Positions 3,741 to 40,922 of a stretch of 64,000 bases of DNA are shown piece by piece (position 1 is the first letter of the stretch; each line of letters opens with the position of its first letter). The position numbers were made by a program, and so were the translations under genes. The stretch is taken from the NCBI GenBank assembly GCA_000004985.1, contig GG738880.1; one strand, 5' to 3'. The notes beneath the pieces are model-generated. The model was not told the origin of the DNA and did not search any database. It saw nothing but the letters and a program-made list of their open reading frames with translations. The stretch comes from Naegleria gruberi. Lineage: Eukaryota.

Positions 3741-5354
3741 ATGAACACTTTGTGGAGACGATTGTCTATCCTGAATAAATCCTCTAAAATACTAAAATCA
3801 TCTTCATCATCAGCAACTTTAGTAAAATTAAATTCGGGAAGGAATAATTTTAGTACATCATCCAACAAAATTCTCTCAACACAACAAAATAATGATAATA
3901 ATTATACAGTTTTAAGTGTGGATACATCGGGACTTGTTCAAGAGACTTACGATAGTACAATAGTCAAAGAACATGAAACTCCAATGGTAAAACATTTAAA
4001 AAACAAAATTAAAGGAGCAGGACCAATTTCCGTATCAACATTTATTCAAGAAACATTATTGAATCCAATTTATGGTTATTATTACACTGCAAAGAAAACA
4101 TCATTGGACAATTCAAAACAAAATGTGATCGGAAGAGAGGGTGATTTCGTTACTTCACCAGAAATTTCTTCAGTATTCAGTGAAATGATTGGATTGTGGT
4201 GTGTAGATATGTGGACAAAATTAGGAAAGCCAAAGCAAATAGAACTTGTTGAATTAGGTCCTGGTAAAGGTACTTTAATGCACGATTTATTGGATAGTTT
4301 AGTTCAATCTAAAAATTCACCAACTATTGATGCTTTCAGACAATCTGTAAAGAAAGTTACAATGTGTGAAGCTTCAGAGGCTTTAAAGGAGGTACAAAAG
4401 GACAAACTCAAGTCATTTACAGAAACACACGAATTTAATTGGATTGACAGATTTGACAAGTATTCTGACTTTGATAGTAATATGCCTGTACTAATTATTG
4501 CTCATGAATTCTTTGATGCCTTACCTGTATATCATTTTGAGGTGAGTTTTAATTGAGAAGTTGAAAATTTAATTTTGGAATAGTACACTGAAAGAGGTTG
4601 GATGGAAGTATTGGTTGATATTGATGATGCAAAGGATTCACCACATCATTTCAAGTTTGTATTATCACCAGGACCAACAATGGCAACAGCATTTGTTAAC
4701 TTGGTTGAAGGAAAGAAGGATGTTGGTTCTATCAGAGAAGTTTGTGCAATGGGTATTGGATATGTTGAAAAAATTGGTGAAATTTTGAACAATAGAAAAG
4801 GTGGTTCATTAATTATTGACTACGGAAATGATTATCCTATGGGATTCACCCTTCAGGGTATTTATCAACACAGGTTTACTGAAACTCCTTTGGAAAAGCC
4901 AGGTGAAGTTGACTTGTCTACTTTTGTTGATTTTTCAAGTTTGAGGAAGGCAGTTGAAAAATTCAAAAATGTTAAGGTTTATGGACCTCAATACCAAGCA
5001 GACTTTTTACATCAAATGGGAATGGATGCAAGATTTGCCAAATTACTTCAAAATCCAAAACTTTCTCCTGAACAAGTTACATCAATGATAACAGCTTATG
5101 AAAGATTAACACACCCAACTGAAATGGGTCATCACTACAAGGCCATGGCTCTTGCCCATTTACCATCCAACAAGCTCACAGCCACAGGTTTCGATATTAA
5201 TCTCATTCCAAAGAGGGAAGCAACCCCAAACATGAAATCCCAAAGAGTTGCCCCAACACCAACCATTATTCATGGTAATAAGGAGGGTGAAACATCTAGA
5301 ATCAAACCATCTGATAAGAAAACTGTTCCAGCTGATGTTGGTATGTTCATATAA
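3741..5354 (+). CDS. NDUFAF7: NDUFAF7/MidA-family protein arginine methyltransferase (complex I assembly factor 7), mitochondrial
   Basis: Two exons, 3741..4541 and 4584..5354, joined by a 42-nt intron (GTGAGT..TAG). ELGPGKGTLMHDLL, FVTSPEISSVFSEMIG and [16 protein letters not shown]...YTERGWMEVLVDID align with human NDUFAF7 ([28 protein letters not shown]). Confidence 0.85.
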
Positions 5355-5608
5355 ATCAATGACTTTACAAAATTCATCCAAATATGTTAATTTCTGTATG
5401 CCATTCAATTTTGGTCATAATATTGTGCTCTGCAGTTTCTCAATGATCTCACAACTAAGCAAACAACAAACATATCATGTGAACATCTAGCTGTTGCATT
5501 CCGAAGCATATCTATCCGTTTTAATGTCCTAATATTGTTGATCTTGATTTCTTTCATGCTTTGTTCATCTCTATGGAAATTTTCCTTCCCTAACCAAAAC
5601 AAAAGAAA

Positions 5609-5830: not shown

Positions 5831-6156
5831 ACACCATCCATCATCATTAAATAATTTTCCCTTTATCACCTAATTCCTTCTCTTCTGTAATAGTATGGAT
5901 CATCTTTAACGGTGATCAACAAATTCAAATTAAATAATTAATTTTGTAATTAATAAAGTCTTGATACTACATTCCGTTTTGATATTGAAAAAATTAGCAG
6001 TAAACACAATTACTACTACTCTCATCATTACAGAAATCATCAATTAGATATTTTGTGAATTTGAAATAATTTTCGTATCGATTTGAAATTGCACAAAATC
6101 CTTCAAATTCAAACTGGATACACTGGTGTGAAAACAGAAACAAAAAAACAAACAAA

Positions 6157-6840
6157 ATGGAAATCACAAAGATTAATGATTATATTTTCAAAATTTCTAA
6201 TCAAAAGAGACAAACAAATGAGACTGATGTTTCTTTCGAGTGGTTCATCTTGAGAATGGATTATTCGAGTGCAGAGACAGATGGCTTGATTTATTTTGAC
6301 TTTCTCGTGAGAAATCAAACATTCCTCAAAGTACACCTTCCTCACTATCCGAATGAGGCCTATGAAAACTTGAGCTGGAGTGTGAATAGAATGAAAAGAT
6401 TATCCTCAGCTCACAATTACTTTGTTCTTGTCAAGAGTGAACAAACACCTTCCTATATTGAAAAGGTAAATCAATCAGAACCTGTGTTTGAATTCTTGAA
6501 GGATAAACTCACTATTGGAGTTTGTGGAGGGTTTACTGGTGGTAAGACAGAGTTTGATTTAATGGAGGTGGGTTATGCTCTCGATGAAAAGTTTCAATCT
6601 CATGGTATTGTTTCCAATACTTTAAAATTCATTATTGAGAAGGCCTTTAAAGAAGTTTCCTCCCTAAATCTCATCAAGCTCGTATGTAATGACTATAATG
6701 TGAAGAGTGCAGCTGTTGGAAAGAGACTGGGTTTTACATTCAATGAGGAAGAATCTGAAAAGGCAAGTAAGGAAGATAATGTAGCTCTCCATTGTTTCAC
6801 AATGACCAGAGAAGAAGCAACCAAACTCTTCCAATTGTGA
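6157..6840 (+). CDS. GNAT-family N-acetyltransferase (RimJ/RimL-like)
   Basis: 227-aa ORF; C-terminal block VGYALDEKFQSHGIVSNTLKFIIEKAFKEVSSLNLIKLVCNDYNVKSAAVGKRLGF matches the GNAT acetyl-CoA binding motifs A and B. Confidence 0.7.
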   Translation: MEITKINDYIFKISNQKRQTNETDVSFEWFILRMDYSSAETDGLIYFDFLVRNQTFLKVHLPHYPNEAYENLSWSVNRMKRLSSAHNYFVLVKSEQTPSYIEKVNQSEPVFEFLKDKLTIGVCGGFTGGKTEFDLMEVGYALDEKFQSHGIVSNTLKFIIEKAFKEVSSLNLIKLVCNDYNVKSAAVGKRLGFTFNEEESEKASKEDNVALHCFTMTREEATKLFQL

Positions 6841-6936
6841 AAGCAATATTTTCTAATGAAAGCATTAAACAAGGCCATTATTAAATTTTCCTAAATTTCC
6901 CGCCTTGGAGAATCGTTACATAATTTTTTAAAAAAA

Positions 6937-8034
6937 ATGCAAAGATTTCTCGCTCGAATGATTGGTGCTCATGATGAAACTCCAGAACATCACACACCAA
7001 TGTCCAGTGCCTCTGAGATGAGTGACCACTTCTCACCAGATTTTAACTCCTTCCTCGATACCGTTCCTTCCATAAATTCCAAACATTCTGATTCATCAAC
7101 TGCTGCCTATCCCATCACATCGAAACAGAACCAATTGGTTGTGAATATAGGATCTGTTCCATCATCGAATATACAATCATCGACCACTGCAGCTGTTGCT
7201 CCAATCAGCATTGGTACCAAACTCTTTGACTCGAATGTGAATGTTATGCAACCATCCGATTTGGAATGTCCATCAAACTTGAGAACAGGAGCTTTTACCT
7301 TTGATCCATCTTCATCAATTGTTAGACCTGCTGCTGGAGTGGCCACTGTTCAAACTGATGATCTTTCCAAGCTATTGGCTCAACATTCTAATAGTCTAGT
7401 ACACAATCAAACAACTTTGGAAACAGCCATAACACCAAAGAGAAATTCACACAATTTGGATTCTTTATTATTGGATAGTGAAGATTCAATATCTCAATTT
7501 AGTGTGCAAAGTAGTTGTAATAGTGAAATGACAAGATCTACCAAAAGTAAAATGTCAACTAAGAGTATTCCAAAAACTCCACTTGGCACTTCATCAACAC
7601 GTAAAAGAGAATATTTGGCACTCACTAATAACTTTAATTCATTCTATAATGGCATGATTGAGAATCAAAATACTATTCTAAATGCACTTTCTGAAAAGAA
7701 TCAAGAAATCATCTCTGAAATTGCTCAATCGAGTCAATCCATTAATGATATGGGATTTAAGATTAATGATTTTGTTGCTCAACAAGTTGGTTGTTTGAAA
7801 TTGGATTTGGAAAGGGAAATTTCTCAATTACAATCCATGAATAATCAAGTATTACAACAATTAATTACCAATCAAACTCAACTCATTTCACAAATTCAAT
7901 CCCTTAATCAAACTGCACAAACTAACCAAGAAGAAAACAAAAACTTGAAACTCATGCTCTCTGGATCCATCACTATTGCCATTATTGGATTTTTGGCACA
8001 ATTTATTGTGAATAAATCTTCAAAGAGTTTGTAA
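6937..8034 (+). CDS. hypothetical tail-anchored coiled-coil protein (SNARE-like layout)
   Basis: S/T-rich N-terminal half, heptad-rich Q/N/L coiled coil, and a single C-terminal TM helix ITIAIIGFLAQFIV with a short tail. Confidence 0.5.
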   Translation: MQRFLARMIGAHDETPEHHTPMSSASEMSDHFSPDFNSFLDTVPSINSKHSDSSTAAYPITSKQNQLVVNIGSVPSSNIQSSTTAAVAPISIGTKLFDSNVNVMQPSDLECPSNLRTGAFTFDPSSSIVRPAAGVATVQTDDLSKLLAQHSNSLVHNQTTLETAITPKRNSHNLDSLLLDSEDSISQFSVQSSCNSEMTRSTKSKMSTKSIPKTPLGTSSTRKREYLALTNNFNSFYNGMIENQNTILNALSEKNQEIISEIAQSSQSINDMGFKINDFVAQQVGCLKLDLEREISQLQSMNNQVLQQLITNQTQLISQIQSLNQTAQTNQEENKNLKLMLSGSITIAIIGFLAQFIVNKSSKSL

Positions 8035-8106
8035 TTCTTTGAAGCACTTGCACATTGTAATTCAATTTGCTTTGAGAAATAATTTTTATTTAAAATTTAC
8101 AAAAAA

Positions 8107-9280
8107 ATGTTTAAACAAGTGCTTGGTTTCGGAAAGAGGAAAGGTTAATAATAATTCATTGGGAAAAATTGTAGGCTTGAGATGTTTTAGTACAAGAAAT
8201 AATTTACTATCATCAAATCAAAAGAGAATTTTGTTTTTTGGATCGGATTCATTCTCACTGGAAACACTCAAGTTATTACATTCGGAATTTGTAAAAACCA
8301 ATGAAGCTGATTTGTGTGTTCTTTGTCCACCTGATAGAAAGACAATTAGAAGAAATCAAGCCGAATATAAGGAATGTATTGTCAAGAATTATTGCATGGA
8401 AAATAATATTGATTATTTCCATCCGATTGAAACTGAAAAATCACCAGAGGAGAGAAAGAAAATTCAACGATTGGATATTACAGACATTCCGAGAGAGGAA
8501 CGATTATTTGGAGGAAATCAAGACAATTTTACTCCAAGCTTTGATGTTGGAGTGGTTGTGAGTTTCTCTTACTTCCTTCAGAAGGGATTATTGGATCAAT
8601 TTAAAACAAGGGATGGTCAACATTCTACCATATTTAATATTCACCCTAGTTTATTGCCACGTTATAGAGGACCTGCTCCTATTCATCACGCCTTACTGAA
8701 TGGAGATTCAGAGACTGGTGTCACAATTATGGAATTGGATGATAAGGAATTTGATATTGGTAATATTGTAAAGCAACAAAAATTCAACATTGAAAAAACA
8801 GAAACATTTACTCAACTTCATGATAGGTTGGCAGTACGTGGGGCTGAAATGATGATTGATACAATTCGTGCATGTAATTTTGATTTTACAAAAGTACAAA
8901 GAATCAATCAGGAAAATCTCACTAAAACCATTGCTGCCACTAGAGCTAAGAAGGTCAACTTTGCTATAGGTGAAATTTCTCTTAAGGATGAAAACGTATT
9001 TACCATTTACAATAAGTGGAGGGCTTTGGAGAAAATACACGTCCCATTCCAAAACACAAAGATTTTACTGAAACAATTAGATTATCCAGTAATTGATTCT
9101 TCAGAGGATAATACTCCAATAGGAACATTATATATTGATAGCGACAAATCTCTTTCACTCAAATGTGTTGGTGGTAAATTGAAAATCAAAGCTTTACAAA
9201 TGGAAAATAAGAAGGAAATGTCAGCAAATGATTTCATAAACGGAAATAGAGGAAAACTACCAATGAAATTATTGGCTTAA
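8107..9280 (+). CDS. FMT1: methionyl-tRNA formyltransferase, mitochondrial
   Basis: ILFFGSDSFSLETLKLLH, VVSFSYFLQKGLL and FNIHPSLLPRYRGPAPIHHALLNGDSETGVTIMELDDKEFDIGNIV are the Fmt N-terminal signatures; the C-terminal domain follows. The probable start is ATG 8107 (MFKQVLGFGKRK), a presequence-like exon joined through a putative 31-nt micro-intron 8144..8174 to GLRCFSTRNN...; the 5' end is uncertain (the track ORF starts at 8039 with a non-ATG codon). Confidence 0.8.
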
Positions 9281-35962: not shown

Positions 35963-36971
35963 ATGATCGTATTACCATCACAAGCCGAAGGAAGGGAAAT
36001 GAAGATGAGTTTCAGACCATCAGCAAAGAATGATTCATCGGCCTTTGTTGCTGCTCTTCATAAGGAACCTTCTGCTGATAAAGTAAAAAAGGAATCAAAG
36101 AAGAATATAGACTCGATAAGACATGTTATACGCGAAGAGGATAAAAAGATTGATATATCATTGACTTCAGTTGATGGCCCTTTATTTGTAAGTGTTGGTT
36201 AAATACCAAAAAGGCGATAAGGAATTAATTCTCTTACTATTATTTAGAATCATGCTGTTAAGAGACATTTCATCAAACCACCAGTAACTCAATCATTGGA
36301 TCGATCAGCAGGAAAGAAGAGAGTGGAAATTACAAAGGAGGAACGTTATGAAAGAGCTGGTGTTTCCACACTGAAGGAAGAAGCACAATTCCATAAAAAG
36401 ATCTTTAAAGAACAACCAGAACGTAGGGATAAACCACAAGGAAAGGCAGTTGTGAGAGCCACACCAGATCCTCAAGTTGCTGGTAAAATATCCTGCCCTT
36501 CTGAAAAGGAATCAAGAAGAAAATTATTTGCCGATAAGAACACTGTTGCAAAGAAGGAATATGACTTTAAGGACAGTAGAAAGAGGATTTCAAGTCCAAA
36601 ATATAAAAGCATTACAGCTCCATTCCCAGTCAGAGGTGGAGGAATGATGCCAGAGGATGCAAAGATTGGTATTAAGGTGCATTCTTCAACCAAACCAAAA
36701 GATCACGGAGATGTTATTTCATATACATTTGGTAAGTGATTTGATTTTTCAATATTAACATTTATTGATAAAAGCATCCATGAAGGATAAGGAACAAAAG
36801 CCAACGGCTCCTAATAAGGAAAGATTAGCTTACGAAAAGTTGATAACAGAATGCGGAAAACAACAAGCTCAAGAGAATAGTGCAGTCTACAATTATTTAA
36901 AATCAAGGAGATCAGCTAGCTCACTAGCTTTAACAGAGCATTTATATGATCACAAAGGTCCAGTTGTGTAG
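35963..36971 (+). CDS. hypothetical K/E/R-rich protein, three-exon model
   Basis: Proposed exons 35963..36187, 36248..36731 and 36775..36971 join three track ORFs through GTAAGT..TAG (60 nt) and GTAAGT..AAG (43 nt) introns with consistent phases; the protein is charged and disordered; no domain recognised. Confidence 0.35.
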
Positions 36972-37040
36972 AATAATACTAGGAATTTCTTCAAAATGTA
37001 AAATAAAATTATTGAATGTTGCTAATTGAATACTGATTAT

Positions 37041-38085
37041 TTAATAAGTATCAATATATTTAGCTCTAGCATCAGCTCTAGCTAACCATCCCTTCAAGAA
37101 CTTGTTATTGGCAGTACCTGGTCTTCCCCAATACAAATAATCCTTTCTGTGTCTTTCGTTCAAAAGTCTAGCGAATGCCTTAGCATCTTGATTCTTGTAT
37201 CCACCGAGTTCATTGAGGTATTGTCTTGATCTACCAGTACCAGAGTTGACAGCAATATCAGCACAGACATAGAAAGCAGGTTGTGGCAAGTTAGCACATC
37301 CTCCTGGAGTGAAATAATTAGTAGTGTACAATTTGGCAGCACATGTCTTATAAACAGCAATATTCTTATTGTAAGCATAGTAACAGAAATCAGCTGGATG
37401 ACCAGTGTAACCACTAGCCAATGGAGCAAAGATTCCATTTCTATTATTCCAACATTCACTATTGTATTTAAGAAATAATATTAATTGTCAGATGTCAACA
37501 GTTCAGTAAACTAATAAATTTCAATTGAAACACTTACGCTGGAATAACACCCATACAAGTGTAACCAATCTTTCCTTGGAATGAATTTCCAGAATCACTA
37601 GCCCAATTTTGACACTTTCCTTCACTCTTGAAAATTTCAGCCAAAGCTTCAGCAGCCTTATCACCAGTCTTACTATCACGTCCACCGGCAGTTGATGATG
37701 AACCAGTATTAGTATTACTATTAGAACATGCCATCTTTAAAAATTGAGCAGAAACCCATTGATTGTCACCAATACGAGCCCATTTAGTTCCATCCTTATC
37801 AGTAGTTTCATAGACAGTGACAGGAACATTATTTCCCAAAGTCTTGACGAGGTTTCCACCAGGACTTGTTCTAACGTTCAATGCGGAGGCAACATTGGTA
37901 CAACGAGATTCTGGAGCGAAGGCTTGTTGATCAGCCAATGATTGGACATTCTTTTCGAGTAATTGTTGTTTAATTTCTTGGATCAAAGCTTTGGCTAATT
38001 TCTTCTCTAATGAGAGAGCACTTGTCAAACCAAGAATGACACACAAGAAGGTGGTGATGAGGAGAATCACGGAGAGCTTTTGCAT
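37041..38085 (-). CDS. secreted bacterial-type cell-wall hydrolase: signal peptide, SH3b domain, GH108-family (zliS-like) N-acetylmuramidase with PG_binding_3-type region
   Basis: Exons 37538..38085 and 37041..37458, joined by a 79-nt GTAAGT..TAG intron. Signal peptide MQKLSVILLITTFLCVILGLTSA; SH3b-like ALNVRTSPGGNLVKTLGNNVPVTVYETTDKDGTKWARIGDNQWVSAQFL; G/S/T linker; GH108 signature SEGKCQNWASDSGNSFQGKIGYTCMGV (compare hEGGyvddpkDpGGaTnmGVt); and LPQPAFYVCADIAVNSGTGRSRQYL (compare LP.GLDLLVFDAAVNHG.RRA..LLQ). Confidence 0.75.
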
Positions 38086-38256
38086 TTTTTTTTGTGATGA
38101 GAAAATTGATACTATTTTTAAGAATTTTGGTTATCATAATGATTATCAAAACTATTGGAAAGATCAGTAAATTGAGATTTGAGAAATACAACAAATTTTA
38201 GTGTTTGTAAATTAGACTCTAAAAATATATTAAGAAAATTTTCAAAGTGAATGTAA

Positions 38257-38330
38257 GCCTTCCTAGCTCAGTTGGCAGTAGCGCTGTCCTAGTAAGACAG
38301 AGGTCTTGGGTTCGATTCCCAAGGGAGGCA
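38257..38330 (+). tRNA. tRNA-Thr (anticodon AGU)
   Basis: GCCTTCCTAGCTCAGTTGGCAGTAGCGCTGTCCTAGTAAGACAGAGGTCTTGGGTTCGATTCCCAAGGGAGGCA folds as a cloverleaf: 7-bp acceptor stem (one G-U), D-arm GCTC/GAGC-type, anticodon stem CTGTC/GACAG with loop CTAGTAA (anticodon AGT), T-arm TTGGG/CCCAA with TTCGATT loop; 74 nt, no intron. Confidence 0.85.
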
Positions 38331-38383
38331 TAGTTTTTGCATTTTCTATATTTTTACAAATGGGTTTATTCATATTTTACAAT

Positions 38384-39218
38384 TTAGAAAGAAGTCCAAC
38401 CTCCATCCACAGTCATAACACTTCCATTCACAAAACTGGCATCATCAGACACCAAAAACAATGCAACCTTTGCCAATTCTTCTGGTTGACCAAGTCTAGG
38501 AATCAACTTAGTTCCCAAATACATTTTTCCAGCTCCCAATGGATGAGGTGACTTGATTTCAATTCCAGTAGCAACACTTCCAGGTGCAATAACATTACAT
38601 CTGATCTTATCACTGTAATGGAATGCAACATTCTTACTCATTCCAACTAATGCATGCTTACTTGCAGTGTAGGCAATTCCAGCTCTACCACCATGTAATC
38701 CACCAACTGAGGCAATGTTTACAATGGATCCATTACCTTTTTCAAGGAAAATTGGAATTGCTTTTCTCATGGTTCTCATTGGAGCTGTTGTGTTAACAGA
38801 CATGACTTTCTCCCACAATTCATCTGAAATATCGTGACATGGAACAAAGTTGTCCATGATACCTGCATTATTGACCAAGATATCTAGTGTTCCAAACTTG
38901 TTGATTGTTTCTTCGAAGAGTTTGTCCACTTCTTCTTGTTTGGATACATCACATTTGTGTCCAAAAGCTACACCTCCTAATTTTTCAATTTCTTCAACAG
39001 TTTCTTGAATTCTTTGTTCAACAACATCAGTAACCACAACCTTGCATCCTTCTTCAGCATATGTAAGGGCGATAGCCTTTCCCATTCCTTTAATAAAACC
39101 ATAAATTAACACATGGACACAGTTCCATTAAAACAGTAAAATAAAAAACAAACTTACCAGAGCCAGATCCAGTAACAATGGCAACTCTTCCTTGCAATTT
39201 CTTTGTTTCAGTACTCAT
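38384..39218 (-). CDS. short-chain dehydrogenase/reductase (FabG-like classical SDR)
   Basis: Exons 39158..39218 (MSTETKKLQGRVAIVTGSGSG) and 38384..39087, joined by a 70-nt GTAAGT..AAG intron that splits the TGxxxGxG cofactor motif. LVNNAGI, catalytic S...YTASKHAL (YxxxK) and PG..ATG motifs are all present. Confidence 0.85.
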
Positions 39219-39344
39219 TATTAAACAGTTATTGGTTGGTGTATATTTCTTGTTGTTTTTTTATTGATTGTCATTAAATTGAAAAGCATTTCAATTTAAT
39301 GCTGATTCCTTACACCGATAACAGCGATACAAAGAAGAGGACTT

Positions 39345-39496
39345 GAACTTCTCAAACAATTTGTCCATCAACCTTCACAGGCCATGGTTAGAACCAATGA
39401 ATACTTTTTGATGTTGTTCATAACCTCGAGGAGAGTATGGTTTGATGTTGTTGGTGATTTCATTCGAAGGTTGATGGACAAATTGTTTGAGAAGTT
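39345..39496. repeat. 31-bp perfect inverted repeat (stem) flanking a 90-nt spacer
   Basis: AACTTCTCAAACAATTTGTCCATCAACCTTC at 39345..39375 is exactly reverse-complementary to 39466..39496; it lies at the 3' end and UTR of the AIF-like gene. Confidence 0.8.
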
Positions 39497-40922
39497 GGCA
39501 AACTGAATTAGTTGACTGAATTATCAAATTCTAATAACTTTACATACCTTTTTGGGATTGAAGTATTGAGCAATAAACCAATTTGGTTTCTTTTACATTA
39601 GTTACATCGCCAATGGCAAACATATTTTTGAATGGTTGGTCGTTTTCATCTAAAACTTGTAAATGATTATTAACTTGGATGAAACCGTTCGAATCCAAAC
39701 TATTTGGAAATTCGTCTCTTAACATTTCAGATTGTGGTTTCAATCCAGTGCACAGAAAACAAACATCACATTCAATATCAATGAATGTATTCAATTGACT
39801 ATTCTGAATTCTAAAAGTTGTTGAATTTGATTGAGAAACAATCTCACTCCATAGGTGAATCTTTACATTTCTCATTGTTTCGAATACTTCACTAACTTTC
39901 TTACTTGCTTCTTCACTAGAAGGTTTCATAATTCTGTCAGATCTTTGAATAATATGAATAGTCTTTTCAGGATACTTTTCAGCAATAGAGCCTGCAATTT
40001 CACAGCCAACAAAACCTCCACCCACAATACAAATATCTTTCAGAGATGAGTTTCTGATAAATTCATGAGAATCGAGAATGCTTTGGGAATTGTAACAATT
40101 TACAAACTTGATTTGATTGTCAGAGCGGAGAGTTGGTAAATTGAAACGACATGTACATCCAGTACCAATCAATACGAAATCATATTCTATAGTTTCAGTG
40201 ATTTCCTCAGTTGACTTGGAATGAATTCGATAATGAATGAGGGATTTGTCAATTTTTGAAACCTTTCCAGCAATACAATTTGCTCTTGGAAGAGTGTTTG
40301 CATGATTAACAGATAAATGTTCAGCCACTGCCTTATCTTTGACCATAAAAGGAAAACCAGGAGCAAAATCCAAAGCTCCGTTGAGATCAATAATTGTGAC
40401 ATCAAATAAATCTCTGATGGTTTTATCCTTACATGCAGTGTAGCCACCGAAACCACCTCCAACAATAACTAATCTAGGTTTCATTGAAAGTTTAAATAGG
40501 TTTCTGTCAATTTTGGAAGAATCGTTTGGTTTGAAAAGGTTTAGAACAATTGAAACTAAACCTTGCAATGGATGAAATAGTCCTAAATTGGATGTTTCAG
40601 CAATGGGTTCTATCCAATTCATAATGCACATAATCTTCACTACAAGATAGAATTGACTTTCAGAAATGTCAAAAGTCTTTTCCATTAAATCCATCAAATC
40701 ACCCAAATAAAAGCAGTAATGTTGTAGTTGACCAAACCATTCAATTCTTCTTGAGTGCATTTTCAAACCACTTTCAAACCTTCTCATTCTGTAAATTGAG
40801 AATTCCTTCAAAACCTTGACAAACTCTCCATTCATTATTTCTTCAATTTGTTCTCTTGTCAAATTGGTTTCTGACTTTAAATATTCGAAACCCTTCTTGA
40901 TTACTTCTTGTTGTGTTTGCAT
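39375..40922 (-). CDS. AIF/AMID(FSP1)-like FAD-dependent pyridine nucleotide-disulfide oxidoreductase with an N-terminal extension
   Basis: Main exon 39548..40922 (track ORF 39540..40922): about 140-aa N-terminal region of unknown function, then RLVIVGGGFGGYTACK, ICIVGGGFVGCEIAGS and FAIGDVTNV (Pyr_redox_2). A possible 3' exon 39375..39502 follows a 45-nt GTATGT..CAG intron (adds VCQLLKQFVHQPSNEITNNIKPYSPRGYEQ...). That exon overlaps the 31-bp inverted repeat, so the 3' end is uncertain. Confidence 0.7.

What the first reader, a model, noticed from the sequence alone, without database searches (positions are those of the whole stretch)
37041..39218. Bacterial-type secreted SH3b-GH108 muramidase with a spliceosomal intron, next to a tRNA-Thr and a FabG-like SDR (HGT-like islet)
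The gene 37041..38085 encodes a signal peptide, a bacterial SH3 (SH3b) domain, a G/S/T linker and a GH108-family lysozyme-like domain, with E-G..D.G....G.T..GV and FxxDxAVNxG signatures. This domain architecture belongs to bacteria and phages and is not part of the usual eukaryotic repertoire. It carries a 79-nt GT..AG intron and a eukaryotic secretion signal, so it is a domesticated nuclear gene rather than contamination. It lies directly beside a tRNA-Thr gene. tRNA loci are classic integration hotspots. It also lies beside an SDR whose closest resemblance is to bacterial FabG-like reductases, which is likewise intron-bearing. The product could be a digestive or defensive peptidoglycan hydrolase, for example for bacterivory.
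Basis: partly seen in the sequence, partly recalled or inferred. Interest (0 to 1): 0.8.

Follow-up and report, generated by a model that had tools for sequence, protein, structure and literature searches.

The report
Bacterial-type lysozyme gene in Naegleria
A bacteria-eating amoeba (Naegleria gruberi) carries a real, intron-containing nuclear gene for a secreted cell-wall-cutting enzyme of a bacterial type. It was probably acquired from bacteria long ago. The neighbouring tRNA and reductase genes are not part of one transferred block.

Summary
On the minus strand, 38085..37041 encodes a 321-aa protein: signal peptide, bacterial SH3 domain, Ser/Thr/Gly linker and a divergent GH108 lysozyme domain. 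A 79-nt GT..AG intron interrupts it. The spliced product is identical to the annotated Naegleria gruberi protein XP_002675106.1 (NAEGRDRAFT_80430, "predicted protein").

The gene is nuclear. It is flanked by housekeeping genes and uses host-like codons. It has paralogues and orthologues in N. gruberi, N. fowleri and N. lovaniensis, and a homologue in Percolomonas.

It belongs to a small cysteine-rich GH108-like subfamily (39 representatives among 1.84 billion). Other members occur in a cnidarian, an anaerobic fungus and filamentous cyanobacteria, where the gene lies beside mobile-element genes. An ancient bacterial origin is therefore likely, but the donor was not a proteobacterium or a phage.

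The "islet" idea fails:
- The reductase most resembles Bacillales enzymes (57-61% identity) and has a different phyletic spread.
- It is absent from both N. lovaniensis lysozyme loci.
- tRNA adjacency is expected by chance, because N. gruberi has 924 tRNA genes.

Verdict: a new member of a known kind, of modest interest.

The parts
37041..38085 (-). Whole gene NAEGRDRAFT_80430 (two exons, one intron). It encodes a 321-aa secreted SH3b + GH108-like muramidase.
   Evidence: Searches give the splice model. One search shows exact identity to XP_002675106.1. One search gives the Pfam hits.
37538..38085 (-). Exon 1 (residues 1-183, first two bases of codon 183). It covers the signal peptide, a helical segment, SH3b, the linker and the start of the catalytic domain.
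37459..37537 (-). Spliceosomal intron, 79 nt, GTAAGT...TAG, phase 2, between GVIPA and ECW.
   Evidence: The N. gruberi paralogue 74668 has an intron at the same position and phase. The N. lovaniensis genes have no intron here.
37041..37458 (-). Exon 2 (residues 183-321 plus the stop codon at 37041..37043).
38017..38085 (-). Predicted signal peptide, MQKLSVILLITTFLCVILGLTSA (residues 1-23).
   Evidence: Read directly from the sequence: a basic n-region, a hydrophobic core and a small-residue TSA motif. Homologues have equivalent N-termini. No dedicated predictor was run.
37735..37914 (-). Bacterial-type SH3 (SH3b) domain, residues ~58-117.
37660..37728 (-). Low-complexity Ser/Thr/Asn/Gly linker, residues ~120-142.
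   Evidence: pLDDT is below 50 for residues 124-140. The composition is read from the sequence.
37044..37659 (-). GH108-like catalytic domain plus a short C-terminal helical region, residues 143-321. The intron lies inside this span.
37621..37623 (-). Codon of Glu155, the predicted general acid in the SEGKC motif, which corresponds to the GH108 EGGY motif.
   Evidence: Invariant in the 51-sequence alignment together with Asp164 and Thr176. These correspond to SagA Glu17/Asp26/Thr31 (PMC8334348).
38257..38330 (+). Nuclear tRNA-Thr(AGU) gene. It lies 171 nt upstream of the lysozyme ATG (divergent) and 53 nt beyond the SDR stop (convergent). It is a neighbour, not part of the lysozyme gene.
   Evidence: A-box, B-box and a T5 terminator are read.
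38384..39218 (-). Neighbouring classical SDR gene, NAEGRDRAFT_69731. Exon 1 is 39218..39158, the 70-nt intron is 39157..39088 and exon 2 is 39087..38384. The product is 254 aa.
   Evidence: The public model XP_002675107.1 (233 aa) lacks exon 1.

Best explanation
This is the Naegleria gruberi nuclear gene NAEGRDRAFT_80430.

Proposed mechanism:
- The signal peptide sends the product into the secretory or phago-lysosomal route.
- The SH3b domain is inferred to dock the enzyme on bacterial cell wall.
- The divergent GH108 (T4-lysozyme-like) domain is inferred to cleave the MurNAc-GlcNAc backbone of peptidoglycan. It would use Glu155 as the acid and Asp164/Thr176 to position the water, as in SagA, TtsA and T4 lysozyme.
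- Four cysteines are invariant across the subfamily (C158, C177, C236, C247), and eukaryote-like members carry further ones. Together they suggest disulfide stabilisation for an extracellular or acidic compartment.
- The most likely role is killing or digesting bacterial prey.

Proposed origin: the gene descends from a bacterial GH108-like autolysin, acquired before the Naegleria species diverged. It was then duplicated, it gained introns independently in different lineages, and its codon usage became fully host-like.

The adjacent tRNA-Thr and SDR genes are unrelated neighbours. The SDR is probably a separate acquisition from Bacillales-like bacteria.

Shown here: gene structure, domains, fold, conserved catalytic residues, nuclear context and phyletic distribution. 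Inferred: enzymatic activity, cellular location, direction of transfer and donor.
For: Gene model:
- Exact match to the public annotation.

Domains and structure:
- Pfam GH108 passes its cut-off.
- AlphaFold model: mean pLDDT 89.4.
- Other GH108 structures follow: 2ikb, 2nr7, 6v3z.
- E155, D164 and T176 are invariant across 51 subfamily and canonical GH108 sequences. They equal the SagA catalytic triad (PMC8334348).

Nuclear status:
- Neighbouring genes are RPL5, GNT-I, an AIF-like oxidoreductase, ATP11 and SAPS.
- GC3 is 0.295 against 0.21-0.45 for neighbours, and the CAI-like score lies at the top of the neighbours' range.
- Independent metagenome contigs at 98.6-98.7% identity span both junctions.
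- Orthologues sit on 0.65-0.69 Mb N. lovaniensis scaffolds.

Vertical descent within the genus:
- Naegleria clade: 99% bootstrap.
- N. gruberi subclade: 86%.
- N. fowleri/N. lovaniensis clade: 100%.

Bacterial ancestry:
- Canonical GH108 is a bacterial and phage family.
- The subfamily is small: 39 representatives at E<=1e-30.
- It includes Kamptonema and Phormidium proteins at 54% identity. One sits next to an overlapping M23 peptidase gene, an integrase, a Tn3 transposase and a relaxase.
- In the rooted NJ tree the eukaryote-like sequences nest inside a bacterial grade.
- Intron positions differ between lineages, and one relative is intronless. This is what an ancestrally intronless gene would show.
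Against: - No enzymatic or expression data exist for this gene.
- The GH108 EGGY motif is altered to EGKC. A 7-residue insertion separates Asp164 from Thr176.
- The canonical C-terminal PG_binding_3 domain is largely missing.
- Deep branches of the tree are unresolved: monophyly of all eukaryote-like sequences has 36% bootstrap. The number of transfers and the donor cannot be fixed.
- Many subfamily members are unnamed metagenomic sequences. I judged them bacterial or eukaryotic from sequence features only.
- The tree is neighbour-joining, not maximum likelihood.
Confidence: 0.72

Rival explanations
1. The lysozyme and the SDR form one horizontally transferred islet that integrated at the tRNA-Thr gene, used as an integration hotspot.
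For: - Two genes with bacterial affinities flank one tRNA within 2.2 kb.
- A tRNA also lies 445 bp upstream of the N. lovaniensis gene 002860.
- A tRNA-Arg lies 75 nt beyond the stop of the SDR homologue in L011.
Against: - The closest bacterial relatives differ: cyanobacteria-like for the lysozyme and Bacillales for the SDR.
- The ages differ. The lysozyme occurs in three Naegleria species, and Percolomonas has a homologue. No named Naegleria SDR orthologue is among the best 120 hits.
- Neither N. lovaniensis lysozyme locus has an SDR or the window's flanks.
- No tRNA was found in ten other loci that carry a homologue of the lysozyme or the SDR: L012, L013, L014, L015, L016, L038-L042. Five of these are from eukaryote-like contigs with at least 2.9 kb of sequence.
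- N. gruberi has 924 tDNAs (PMC2888827) for about 15,700 genes (gene number from my own knowledge). About 6% of spacers therefore hold one. Leaving out the discovery locus, two hits in six loci has P of about 0.1.
- The break of metagenome contigs exactly at the tRNA is explained by the tRNA being a repeat.
Confidence: 0.06
2. The region is bacterial contamination or a chimeric assembly, not amoeba DNA.
For: Both proteins have bacterial-type domains. The SDR is 57-61% identical to Paenibacillus proteins.
Against: - Both genes carry GT..AG introns.
- GC content and codon usage are host-like.
- The genes are embedded among eukaryotic housekeeping genes.
- Independent contigs at 98.6-98.7% identity bridge 36551-38339 and 38257-39712.
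- Orthologues with introns lie on large scaffolds of N. lovaniensis.
Confidence: 0.01
3. The gene is an ancient, vertically inherited eukaryotic lysozyme family that most eukaryotes lost. The cyanobacterial copies would then be acquisitions from eukaryotes.
For: - Members occur in Heterolobosea, a cnidarian (an intron-bearing gene on a 37-Mb chromosome) and an anaerobic fungus.
- The eukaryote-like sequences cluster together in the NJ tree.
- The cyanobacterial copies lie in mobile-element contexts.
Against: - The distribution is extremely patchy: 39 representatives in 1.84 billion.
- Several distinct bacterial clades form a grade between canonical bacterial/phage GH108 and the eukaryote cluster.
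- Intron positions are not shared, even between Naegleria paralogue lineages.
- The SH3b and GH108 domains are otherwise prokaryotic (established knowledge).
Confidence: 0.08
4. The protein is not an antibacterial muramidase. It acts on another glycan, for example chitosan-like polymers or the amoeba's own cyst wall, or it serves as a non-catalytic cell-wall-binding lectin.
For: - The active-site loop carries a 7-residue insertion, and EGGY has become EGKC.
- PG_binding_3 is reduced.
Against: - The Glu/Asp/Thr triad is invariant.
- The catalytic domain is fused to SH3b, a domain typical of cell-wall hydrolases.
- Bacterial relatives pair or fuse with M23 peptidoglycan endopeptidases.
Confidence: 0.12

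Closest known systems
GH108 N-acetylmuramidases (Pfam PF05838): Brucella abortus SagA (7dnp), Salmonella Typhi TtsA, coliphage N4 gp61
   Same: - The Pfam hit is above the cut-off.
- The Glu/Asp/Thr catalytic triad is conserved.
- The C-terminal 'F.KGWL.R' helix is conserved.
   Different: - Only about 18-21% identity to SagA.
- EGKC replaces EGGY.
- A 7-residue insertion lies between the catalytic Asp and Thr.
- Four or more conserved cysteines are present.
- The PG_binding_3 domain is truncated.
- The protein is fused to an N-terminal SH3b domain and a eukaryotic signal peptide.
- It is encoded with an intron in a eukaryotic nucleus.
Cysteine-rich GH108-like subfamily found here: Kamptonema/Phormidium WP_007358322 and WP_449415976, Hydractinia XP_057302257, Piromyces finnis ORX50339, Percolomonas MMETSP0758, and the Naegleria paralogues
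   Same: - Shared motifs SEGxCQNW..D.GN..G..GYTC.G and DIAVNSGxGRS.
- 47-76% identity over the 180-aa domain among the named members listed; the Piromyces protein (ORX50339) is more divergent and was found only by the profile search (E 2.3e-33).
- The same invariant cysteines.
   Different: - Bacterial members have an N-terminal membrane anchor or an M23 fusion, and lie in mobile-element contexts.
- Cnidarian and fungal members carry Cys-rich N-terminal modules instead of SH3b.
- SH3b fusions were seen only in eukaryote-like sequences, including the named heteroloboseans.
Known cases of bacterial cell-wall hydrolases domesticated by eukaryotes. GH108 in Neocallimastigomycota comes from bioRxiv 10.1101/487215. 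The Trichomonas NlpC/P60 structures 6bim and 6biq appeared in the fold searches. GH25 lysozymes, Tae/Dae amidases and the horizontal origin of the Trichomonas enzymes are from my own knowledge.
   Same: The theme is the same: a secreted peptidoglycan hydrolase of bacterial origin, adapted with a eukaryotic signal peptide and introns, in an organism that eats or fights bacteria. The Trichomonas NlpC enzymes also carry bacterial SH3 domains.
   Different: The catalytic family or the host lineage differs. I found no paper in the searchable library that describes GH108-type enzymes in Heterolobosea.
Bacillales classical SDRs, NCBIfam NF005559 'glucose 1-dehydrogenase' subfamily (for the neighbouring gene)
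   Same: - 57-61% identity over 98% of the length to Paenibacillus, Geobacillus and Heyndrickxia SDRs.
- The protein passes the NF005559 cut-off, 239.8 against 215 bits.
   Different: - It has a 70-nt spliceosomal intron and host codon usage.
- It falls below all FabG equivalog cut-offs, so 'FabG-like' describes a resemblance only.

Membership tests
GH108 / Pfam Glyco_hydro_108 (PF05838) | Sequence match to the family profile above the curated gathering score | tested here: met
   42.8 bits against a cut-off of 21.2, E 7.9e-11, profile positions 2-85 of 85.
GH108 / Pfam Glyco_hydro_108 (PF05838) | Catalytic Glu in the N-terminal EGGY-type motif, plus the T4-lysozyme-like Asp and Thr (SagA Glu17/Asp26/Thr31) | tested here: met
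   E155, D164 and T176 are invariant in the 51-sequence alignment that includes canonical GH108 proteins. The residues are defined in PMC8334348. The motif reads EGKC rather than EGGY, and the Asp-Thr spacing is 7 residues longer.
GH108 / Pfam Glyco_hydro_108 (PF05838) | Lysozyme-like alpha-helical fold of solved GH108 proteins | tested here: met
GH108 / Pfam Glyco_hydro_108 (PF05838) | C-terminal PG_binding_3 (PF09374) domain, usual in canonical members | tested here: not met
   No PF09374 hit in the window protein at E<=1. Relatives match only profile positions ~42-76 of 76. This is a common accompaniment of the catalytic family, not a defining feature.
GH108 / Pfam Glyco_hydro_108 (PF05838) | N-acetylmuramidase activity on peptidoglycan | not testable with these tools
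   Needs a biochemical assay.
Bacterial SH3 (SH3b; Pfam SH3_3 PF08239) | Profile match above the gathering score | tested here: inconclusive
   25.9 bits against a cut-off of 27. The N. fowleri and N. lovaniensis orthologues carry precomputed PF08239 hits. The relatives P0011 and L039 score 67 bits.
Bacterial SH3 (SH3b; Pfam SH3_3 PF08239) | SH3b beta-barrel fold | tested here: met
Horizontally acquired (bacterium-to-eukaryote) gene | The recipient copy is integrated in the nuclear genome: introns, host composition, eukaryotic neighbours, independent assemblies | tested here: met
Horizontally acquired (bacterium-to-eukaryote) gene | Eukaryotic sequences nested within bacterial diversity with strong support | tested here: inconclusive
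   The topology of the NJ tree agrees. The subfamily separates from canonical GH108 at 98% bootstrap, but the eukaryote-like clan has only 36%. No maximum-likelihood tool was available.
FabG (3-oxoacyl-ACP reductase) - neighbouring SDR | Score above the NCBIfam FabG equivalog or subfamily cut-offs | tested here: not met
   NF004198: 215.5 against 296. NF009466: 209 against 222. TIGR01830: 189.9 against 297.75. Only NF005559 ('glucose 1-dehydrogenase' subfamily) passes, 239.8 against 215.
tRNA-targeted integration island | Association with tRNA genes beyond chance, and co-inheritance of the flanking cargo | tested here: not met
   tRNAs lie next to homologues in 2 of 6 further eukaryote-like loci. 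The expected rate is ~10% per gene, from 924 tDNAs. The cargo genes are not linked in N. lovaniensis.

The most novel reading that the evidence does not exclude
The window gene may represent an undescribed, cysteine-rich GH108-like lysozyme class that distant eukaryotes have domesticated repeatedly. Those eukaryotes are heterolobosean amoebae, a hydrozoan cnidarian, anaerobic gut fungi and several unidentified protists. The source would be membrane-anchored autolysins carried on cyanobacterial mobile elements. Each lineage added its own targeting module, either SH3b or a Cys-rich domain. If so, this is a convergently recruited antibacterial effector family, comparable to the GH25 and Tae/Dae cases.
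Probability: 0.4. Interest if true: 0.55.

Novelty: new member of a known kind. Interest (0 to 1): 0.35.

Why it matters
Naegleria are bacterivores, and N. fowleri is a lethal human pathogen. Knowing which enzymes they use to break bacterial walls bears on feeding, on their interactions with intracellular bacteria such as Legionella, and on enzyme discovery.

The case adds a heterolobosean example, and a distinct GH108-like clade, to the short list of bacterial cell-wall hydrolases taken over by eukaryotes. Independent intron gain in the paralogues gives a small, clean illustration of how a transferred gene is domesticated.

The result does not change any general principle. The gene is already in public annotation as a predicted protein.

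Tried and rejected
1. tRNA as an integration hotspot.
   - I scanned 16 related loci for tRNAs and confirmed the hits with Rfam.
   - Two further adjacencies looked striking at first. They lose significance once the 924 tDNAs of N. gruberi are taken into account.
   - One ARAGORN call in L001 (7400-7476) did not pass Rfam.
2. Strain-specific insertion of the SDR.
   - Metagenome contig L009 loses similarity to the window exactly at the tRNA.
   - Contig L010 from the same sample carries the SDR and overlaps L009 by the tRNA. This is an assembly break at a repeat, not an indel.
3. Phage vector. The viral-contig scan found only canonical GH108 at 24-41% identity.
4. Bacterial donor by genome scan. 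GTDB genomes gave only one subfamily member, an 'Actinomycetota' MAG on a 9-kb contig. The cyanobacterial members came from the protein search instead.
5. Organism identification through the single-exon 460-aa neighbour failed: it is not on record. The exact look-up of the spliced protein succeeded.
6. The Foldseek afdb50 library was unavailable.
7. Literature searches for the locus tags, for GH108 in Naegleria, and for GH108 plus eukaryote HGT returned nothing specific. The exception is GH108 transcripts in anaerobic fungi.
8. My first SDR splice coordinates were off by two bases and gave a frameshift. They were corrected.
Full report
**What is in the sequence**

The window is AT-rich (about 33% G+C throughout). 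On the minus strand an ATG at 38085 opens a reading frame that stops inside a GTAAGT...TAG element.

Removing 37537..37459 (79 nt, phase 2) joins the frame to 37458..37041 and gives a 321-aa protein. That protein is, residue for residue, XP_002675106.1 / EFC42362.1 / NAEGRDRAFT_80430 / UniProt D2VLC4, a "predicted protein" of Naegleria gruberi on a 416-kb scaffold.

The junction is also supported by comparison. An intronless relative (P0005) reads GVIPQECWENRN where the spliced window protein reads GVIPA|ECWNNRN.

ARAGORN and Rfam both find one tRNA in the 64 kb, tRNA-Thr(AGU) at 38257..38330 on the plus strand. A T5 run follows 4 nt downstream.

The next gene on the minus strand is a classical SDR. 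Its correct structure is exon 1 39218..39158, a 70-nt intron 39157..39088, and exon 2 39087..38384, giving 254 aa. The public model (XP_002675107.1, 233 aa) starts in exon 2 and lacks the TGSGSG dinucleotide-binding motif.

**Domains and structure**

Pfam results:
- Glyco_hydro_108: E 7.9e-11, 42.8 bits against a cut-off of 21.2, residues 149-256.
- SH3_3: 25.9 bits, just under its cut-off of 27, residues 67-117.
- PG_binding_3: no hit.

An AlphaFold2 model built on a 51-sequence alignment is confident (mean pLDDT 89.4). It shows an N-terminal helix, a seven-stranded barrel (residues 59-112), a disordered linker (124-140) and an all-helical domain (143-320).

Foldseek agrees.

In the 51-sequence alignment, which includes canonical GH108 proteins, E155, D164, T176 and G179 are invariant. 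These correspond to the Glu17/Asp26/Thr31 catalytic residues of SagA and Glu11/Asp20/Thr26 of T4 lysozyme (PMC8334348).

Differences from canonical GH108:
- EGKC replaces EGGY.
- Seven extra residues lie between the Asp and the Thr.
- Four cysteines are invariant across the subfamily.
- The C-terminal region is shortened. In relatives it matches only the last third of PG_binding_3.

**A nuclear gene, not a contaminant**
- The flanking genes encode ribosomal protein L5, GlcNAc-transferase I, an AIF-like flavoprotein, ATP11 and a SAPS-domain protein.
- GC3 is 0.295 for the lysozyme and 0.271 for the SDR, inside the 0.21-0.45 range of the neighbours. Their codon-adaptation scores against the neighbours are among the highest.
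- Two contigs of an unrelated metagenome (ERZ929261) match 36551-38339 and 38257-39712 at 98.6-98.7% identity. They confirm both junctions independently and overlap only in the tRNA, a repeat.

**Relatives**

The single-sequence search found N. fowleri (68% identity), two N. lovaniensis proteins (68% and 54%), a Percolomonas cosmopolitus transcript (38% over the full length, with the same SH3b + GH108 architecture) and unnamed environmental sequences. A second N. gruberi paralogue is NAEGRDRAFT_74668.

A profile search and cluster look-ups added:
- filamentous cyanobacteria (Kamptonema spp. and Phormidium nigroviride; 245 aa; 54% identity over the domain; two copies per genome);
- an 'Actinomycetota' MAG protein on a bacterial-looking contig;
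- Hydractinia symbiolongicarpus XP_057302257, an intron-bearing gene on a 37-Mb chromosome;
- Piromyces finnis ORX50339.

GH108 transcripts in Neocallimastix and Piromyces have already been listed among horizontally acquired CAZymes (bioRxiv 10.1101/487215).

An exhaustive HMMER scan of 1.84 billion representatives found 39 with E<=1e-30, 119 with E<=1e-10 and 1788 with E<=1e-3. This is a small, sharply separated subfamily within a large bacterial and phage family. Viral contigs and GTDB genomes hold almost only distant canonical GH108 at 24-41% identity.

In Phormidium the gene overlaps an upstream M23 peptidase gene. It lies beside a DDE transposase, an integrase, a Tn3 transposase and a relaxase. 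One environmental protein is an M23-GH108-like fusion.

**Phylogeny and introns**

I built a neighbour-joining tree of 70-71 domain sequences, rooted on canonical GH108. It places all eukaryote-like sequences inside a grade of bacterial, largely cyanobacteria-like clades.

Bootstrap support:

| Group | Support |
|---|---|
| Subfamily against the outgroup | 98% |
| Naegleria clade | 99% |
| N. gruberi subclade (80430, 74668, two environmental sequences) | 86% |
| N. fowleri/N. lovaniensis clade (two paralogue pairs) | 100% |
| All eukaryote-like sequences together | 36% |

Inheritance is therefore vertical within the genus, with separate duplications. The deeper history, one transfer or several, is unresolved.

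Intron positions:
- The two N. gruberi paralogues share the intron at GV(I/T)P(A/S)|ECW, in the same phase.
- N. lovaniensis 004067 instead has two introns around a 10-nt micro-exon (DFQ|GKIG|YTC).
- N. lovaniensis 002860 has one intron 20 codons before the stop.
- The environmental relative P0005 has none.

This pattern fits an ancestrally intronless gene that gained introns lineage by lineage.

**The neighbours**

The SDR's best named matches are all Bacillota (Paenibacillus, Geobacillus, Heyndrickxia, Cohnella), at 57-61% identity over 98% of its length. Only three unnamed sequences are closer. One belongs to the cluster that contains the N. gruberi protein itself. The other two (76% and 68%) are intronless copies on eukaryote-looking contigs. 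No named Naegleria or other eukaryotic protein appears among the best 120.

By NCBIfam the SDR passes only the 'glucose 1-dehydrogenase' subfamily model and fails every FabG model. It is probably a separate acquisition, possibly younger than the lysozyme, from a different donor group.

Neither N. lovaniensis lysozyme locus carries an SDR or any of the window's flanking genes.

**The tRNA**

I found a Rfam-confirmed tRNA 445 bp upstream of N. lovaniensis 002860, and a tRNA-Arg 75 nt past the SDR homologue in L011. I found none in ten other loci.

N. gruberi has 924 tDNAs (PMC2888827). With about 15,700 genes (my own knowledge), roughly 6% of spacers hold a tRNA and about 11% of genes abut one. 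Excluding the discovery locus, two of six eukaryote-like loci gives P of about 0.1. There is no evidence for a tRNA-linked integration mechanism.

**Most likely mechanism**

The protein is probably a secreted or phagosome-delivered muramidase. The SH3b domain would anchor it to bacterial cell wall. The GH108-like domain would hydrolyse the glycan strand through the Glu155/Asp164/Thr176 machinery. Disulfides would stabilise it outside the cytosol.

This fits a bacterivorous amoeba. A pangenome study notes that Naegleria has several lysozyme genes, without naming this family (PMC9928731). Activity, substrate and location are inferred, not shown.

**Novelty**

The gene is in public annotation, and its orthologues carry automatic names ("SH3b domain-containing protein", [quoted passage not shown]). 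Domestication of bacterial cell-wall hydrolases by eukaryotes is an established theme.

I found no paper on GH108-type enzymes in Heterolobosea, and none that recognises the cysteine-rich subfamily shared with cnidarians, anaerobic fungi and cyanobacteria. I rate it a new member of a known kind, interest 0.35.

Noticed in passing
window 39158-39218 (exon 1) and 39088-39157 (intron) of the SDR gene: The public gene model for NAEGRDRAFT_69731 (XP_002675107.1, 233 aa) starts at a Met in exon 2. It omits a 61-nt first exon that encodes MSTETKKLQGRVAIVTGSGSG, the NAD(P)-binding glycine motif. The 254-aa spliced model aligns end to end with the 252-aa bacterial SDRs.
   Followed up: yes
window 39346-39376 and 39466-39496: A perfect 31-nt inverted repeat with an 89-nt spacer lies in the spacer between the SDR start and the stop of the AIF-like gene. 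In the 98.7%-identical metagenome contig L010, the arm at 39345-39375 is replaced by about 194 nt. The structure is therefore polymorphic between strains. It may be a small hairpin element or a MITE remnant.
   Followed up: partly
L009, L010, L016 (ENA metagenome ERZ929261, project PRJEB11402): An environmental metagenome contains a N. gruberi-like strain at about 98.6% nucleotide identity to the window. Contig L009 joins the lysozyme/tRNA-Thr region to an unrelated DUF4116 gene exactly at the tRNA. This is most simply a mis-join or an alternative tRNA-Thr locus at a repeated tRNA.
   Followed up: partly
L039 (JGI metagenome contig Ga0074193_1000550, 59.6 kb), gene at 4563-5522: A contig with densely packed, intronless ORFs encodes a 2xSH3b + GH108-like protein (53% identical to the window's catalytic domain), next to a GH1 glycosidase and a RabGAP-TBC protein. 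It is an unidentified gene-dense eukaryote or a giant virus.
   Followed up: partly
L013 (Phormidium nigroviride JBSLHB010000001.1), genes at 403-1176 and 1173-1910: The cyanobacterial homologue overlaps an upstream M23 peptidase gene by 4 bp. It lies beside a DDE transposase, a tyrosine integrase, a Tn3-type transposase and a relaxase, a mobile-element context. A separate environmental protein (P0242) is an M23-GH108-like fusion.
   Followed up: partly
L014 8500-8720 (N. lovaniensis PYSW02000020.1): The N. lovaniensis paralogue 004067 contains a 10-nt micro-exon (GGTAAAATTG) between two GTAAGT...AG introns in the active-site loop region.
   Followed up: no
L001 7400-7476 and 7483-7556 (N. lovaniensis): ARAGORN calls two tandem tRNA-like sequences upstream of the lysozyme orthologue. 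Only the second (tRNA-Ala UGC) passes the Rfam threshold. The first resembles it and may be a degenerate tRNA copy.
   Followed up: partly
L067 (Hydractinia symbiolongicarpus CM055238.1, 26.54 Mb), gene at 6001-8137: A hydrozoan carries an intron-bearing member of the same subfamily, fused to a Cys-rich N-terminal module. It lies next to ankyrin/SAM and retrotransposon genes. The Pfam GH108 score (18.9 bits) falls below the cut-off, so standard annotation calls it 'uncharacterized'.
   Followed up: partly
P0244 (947 aa, environmental): A Naegleria-like gene call joins a long Cys-rich N-terminal region to a partial GH108-like domain that lacks the catalytic Glu region. It is probably a merged gene model rather than a real fusion.
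   Followed up: no
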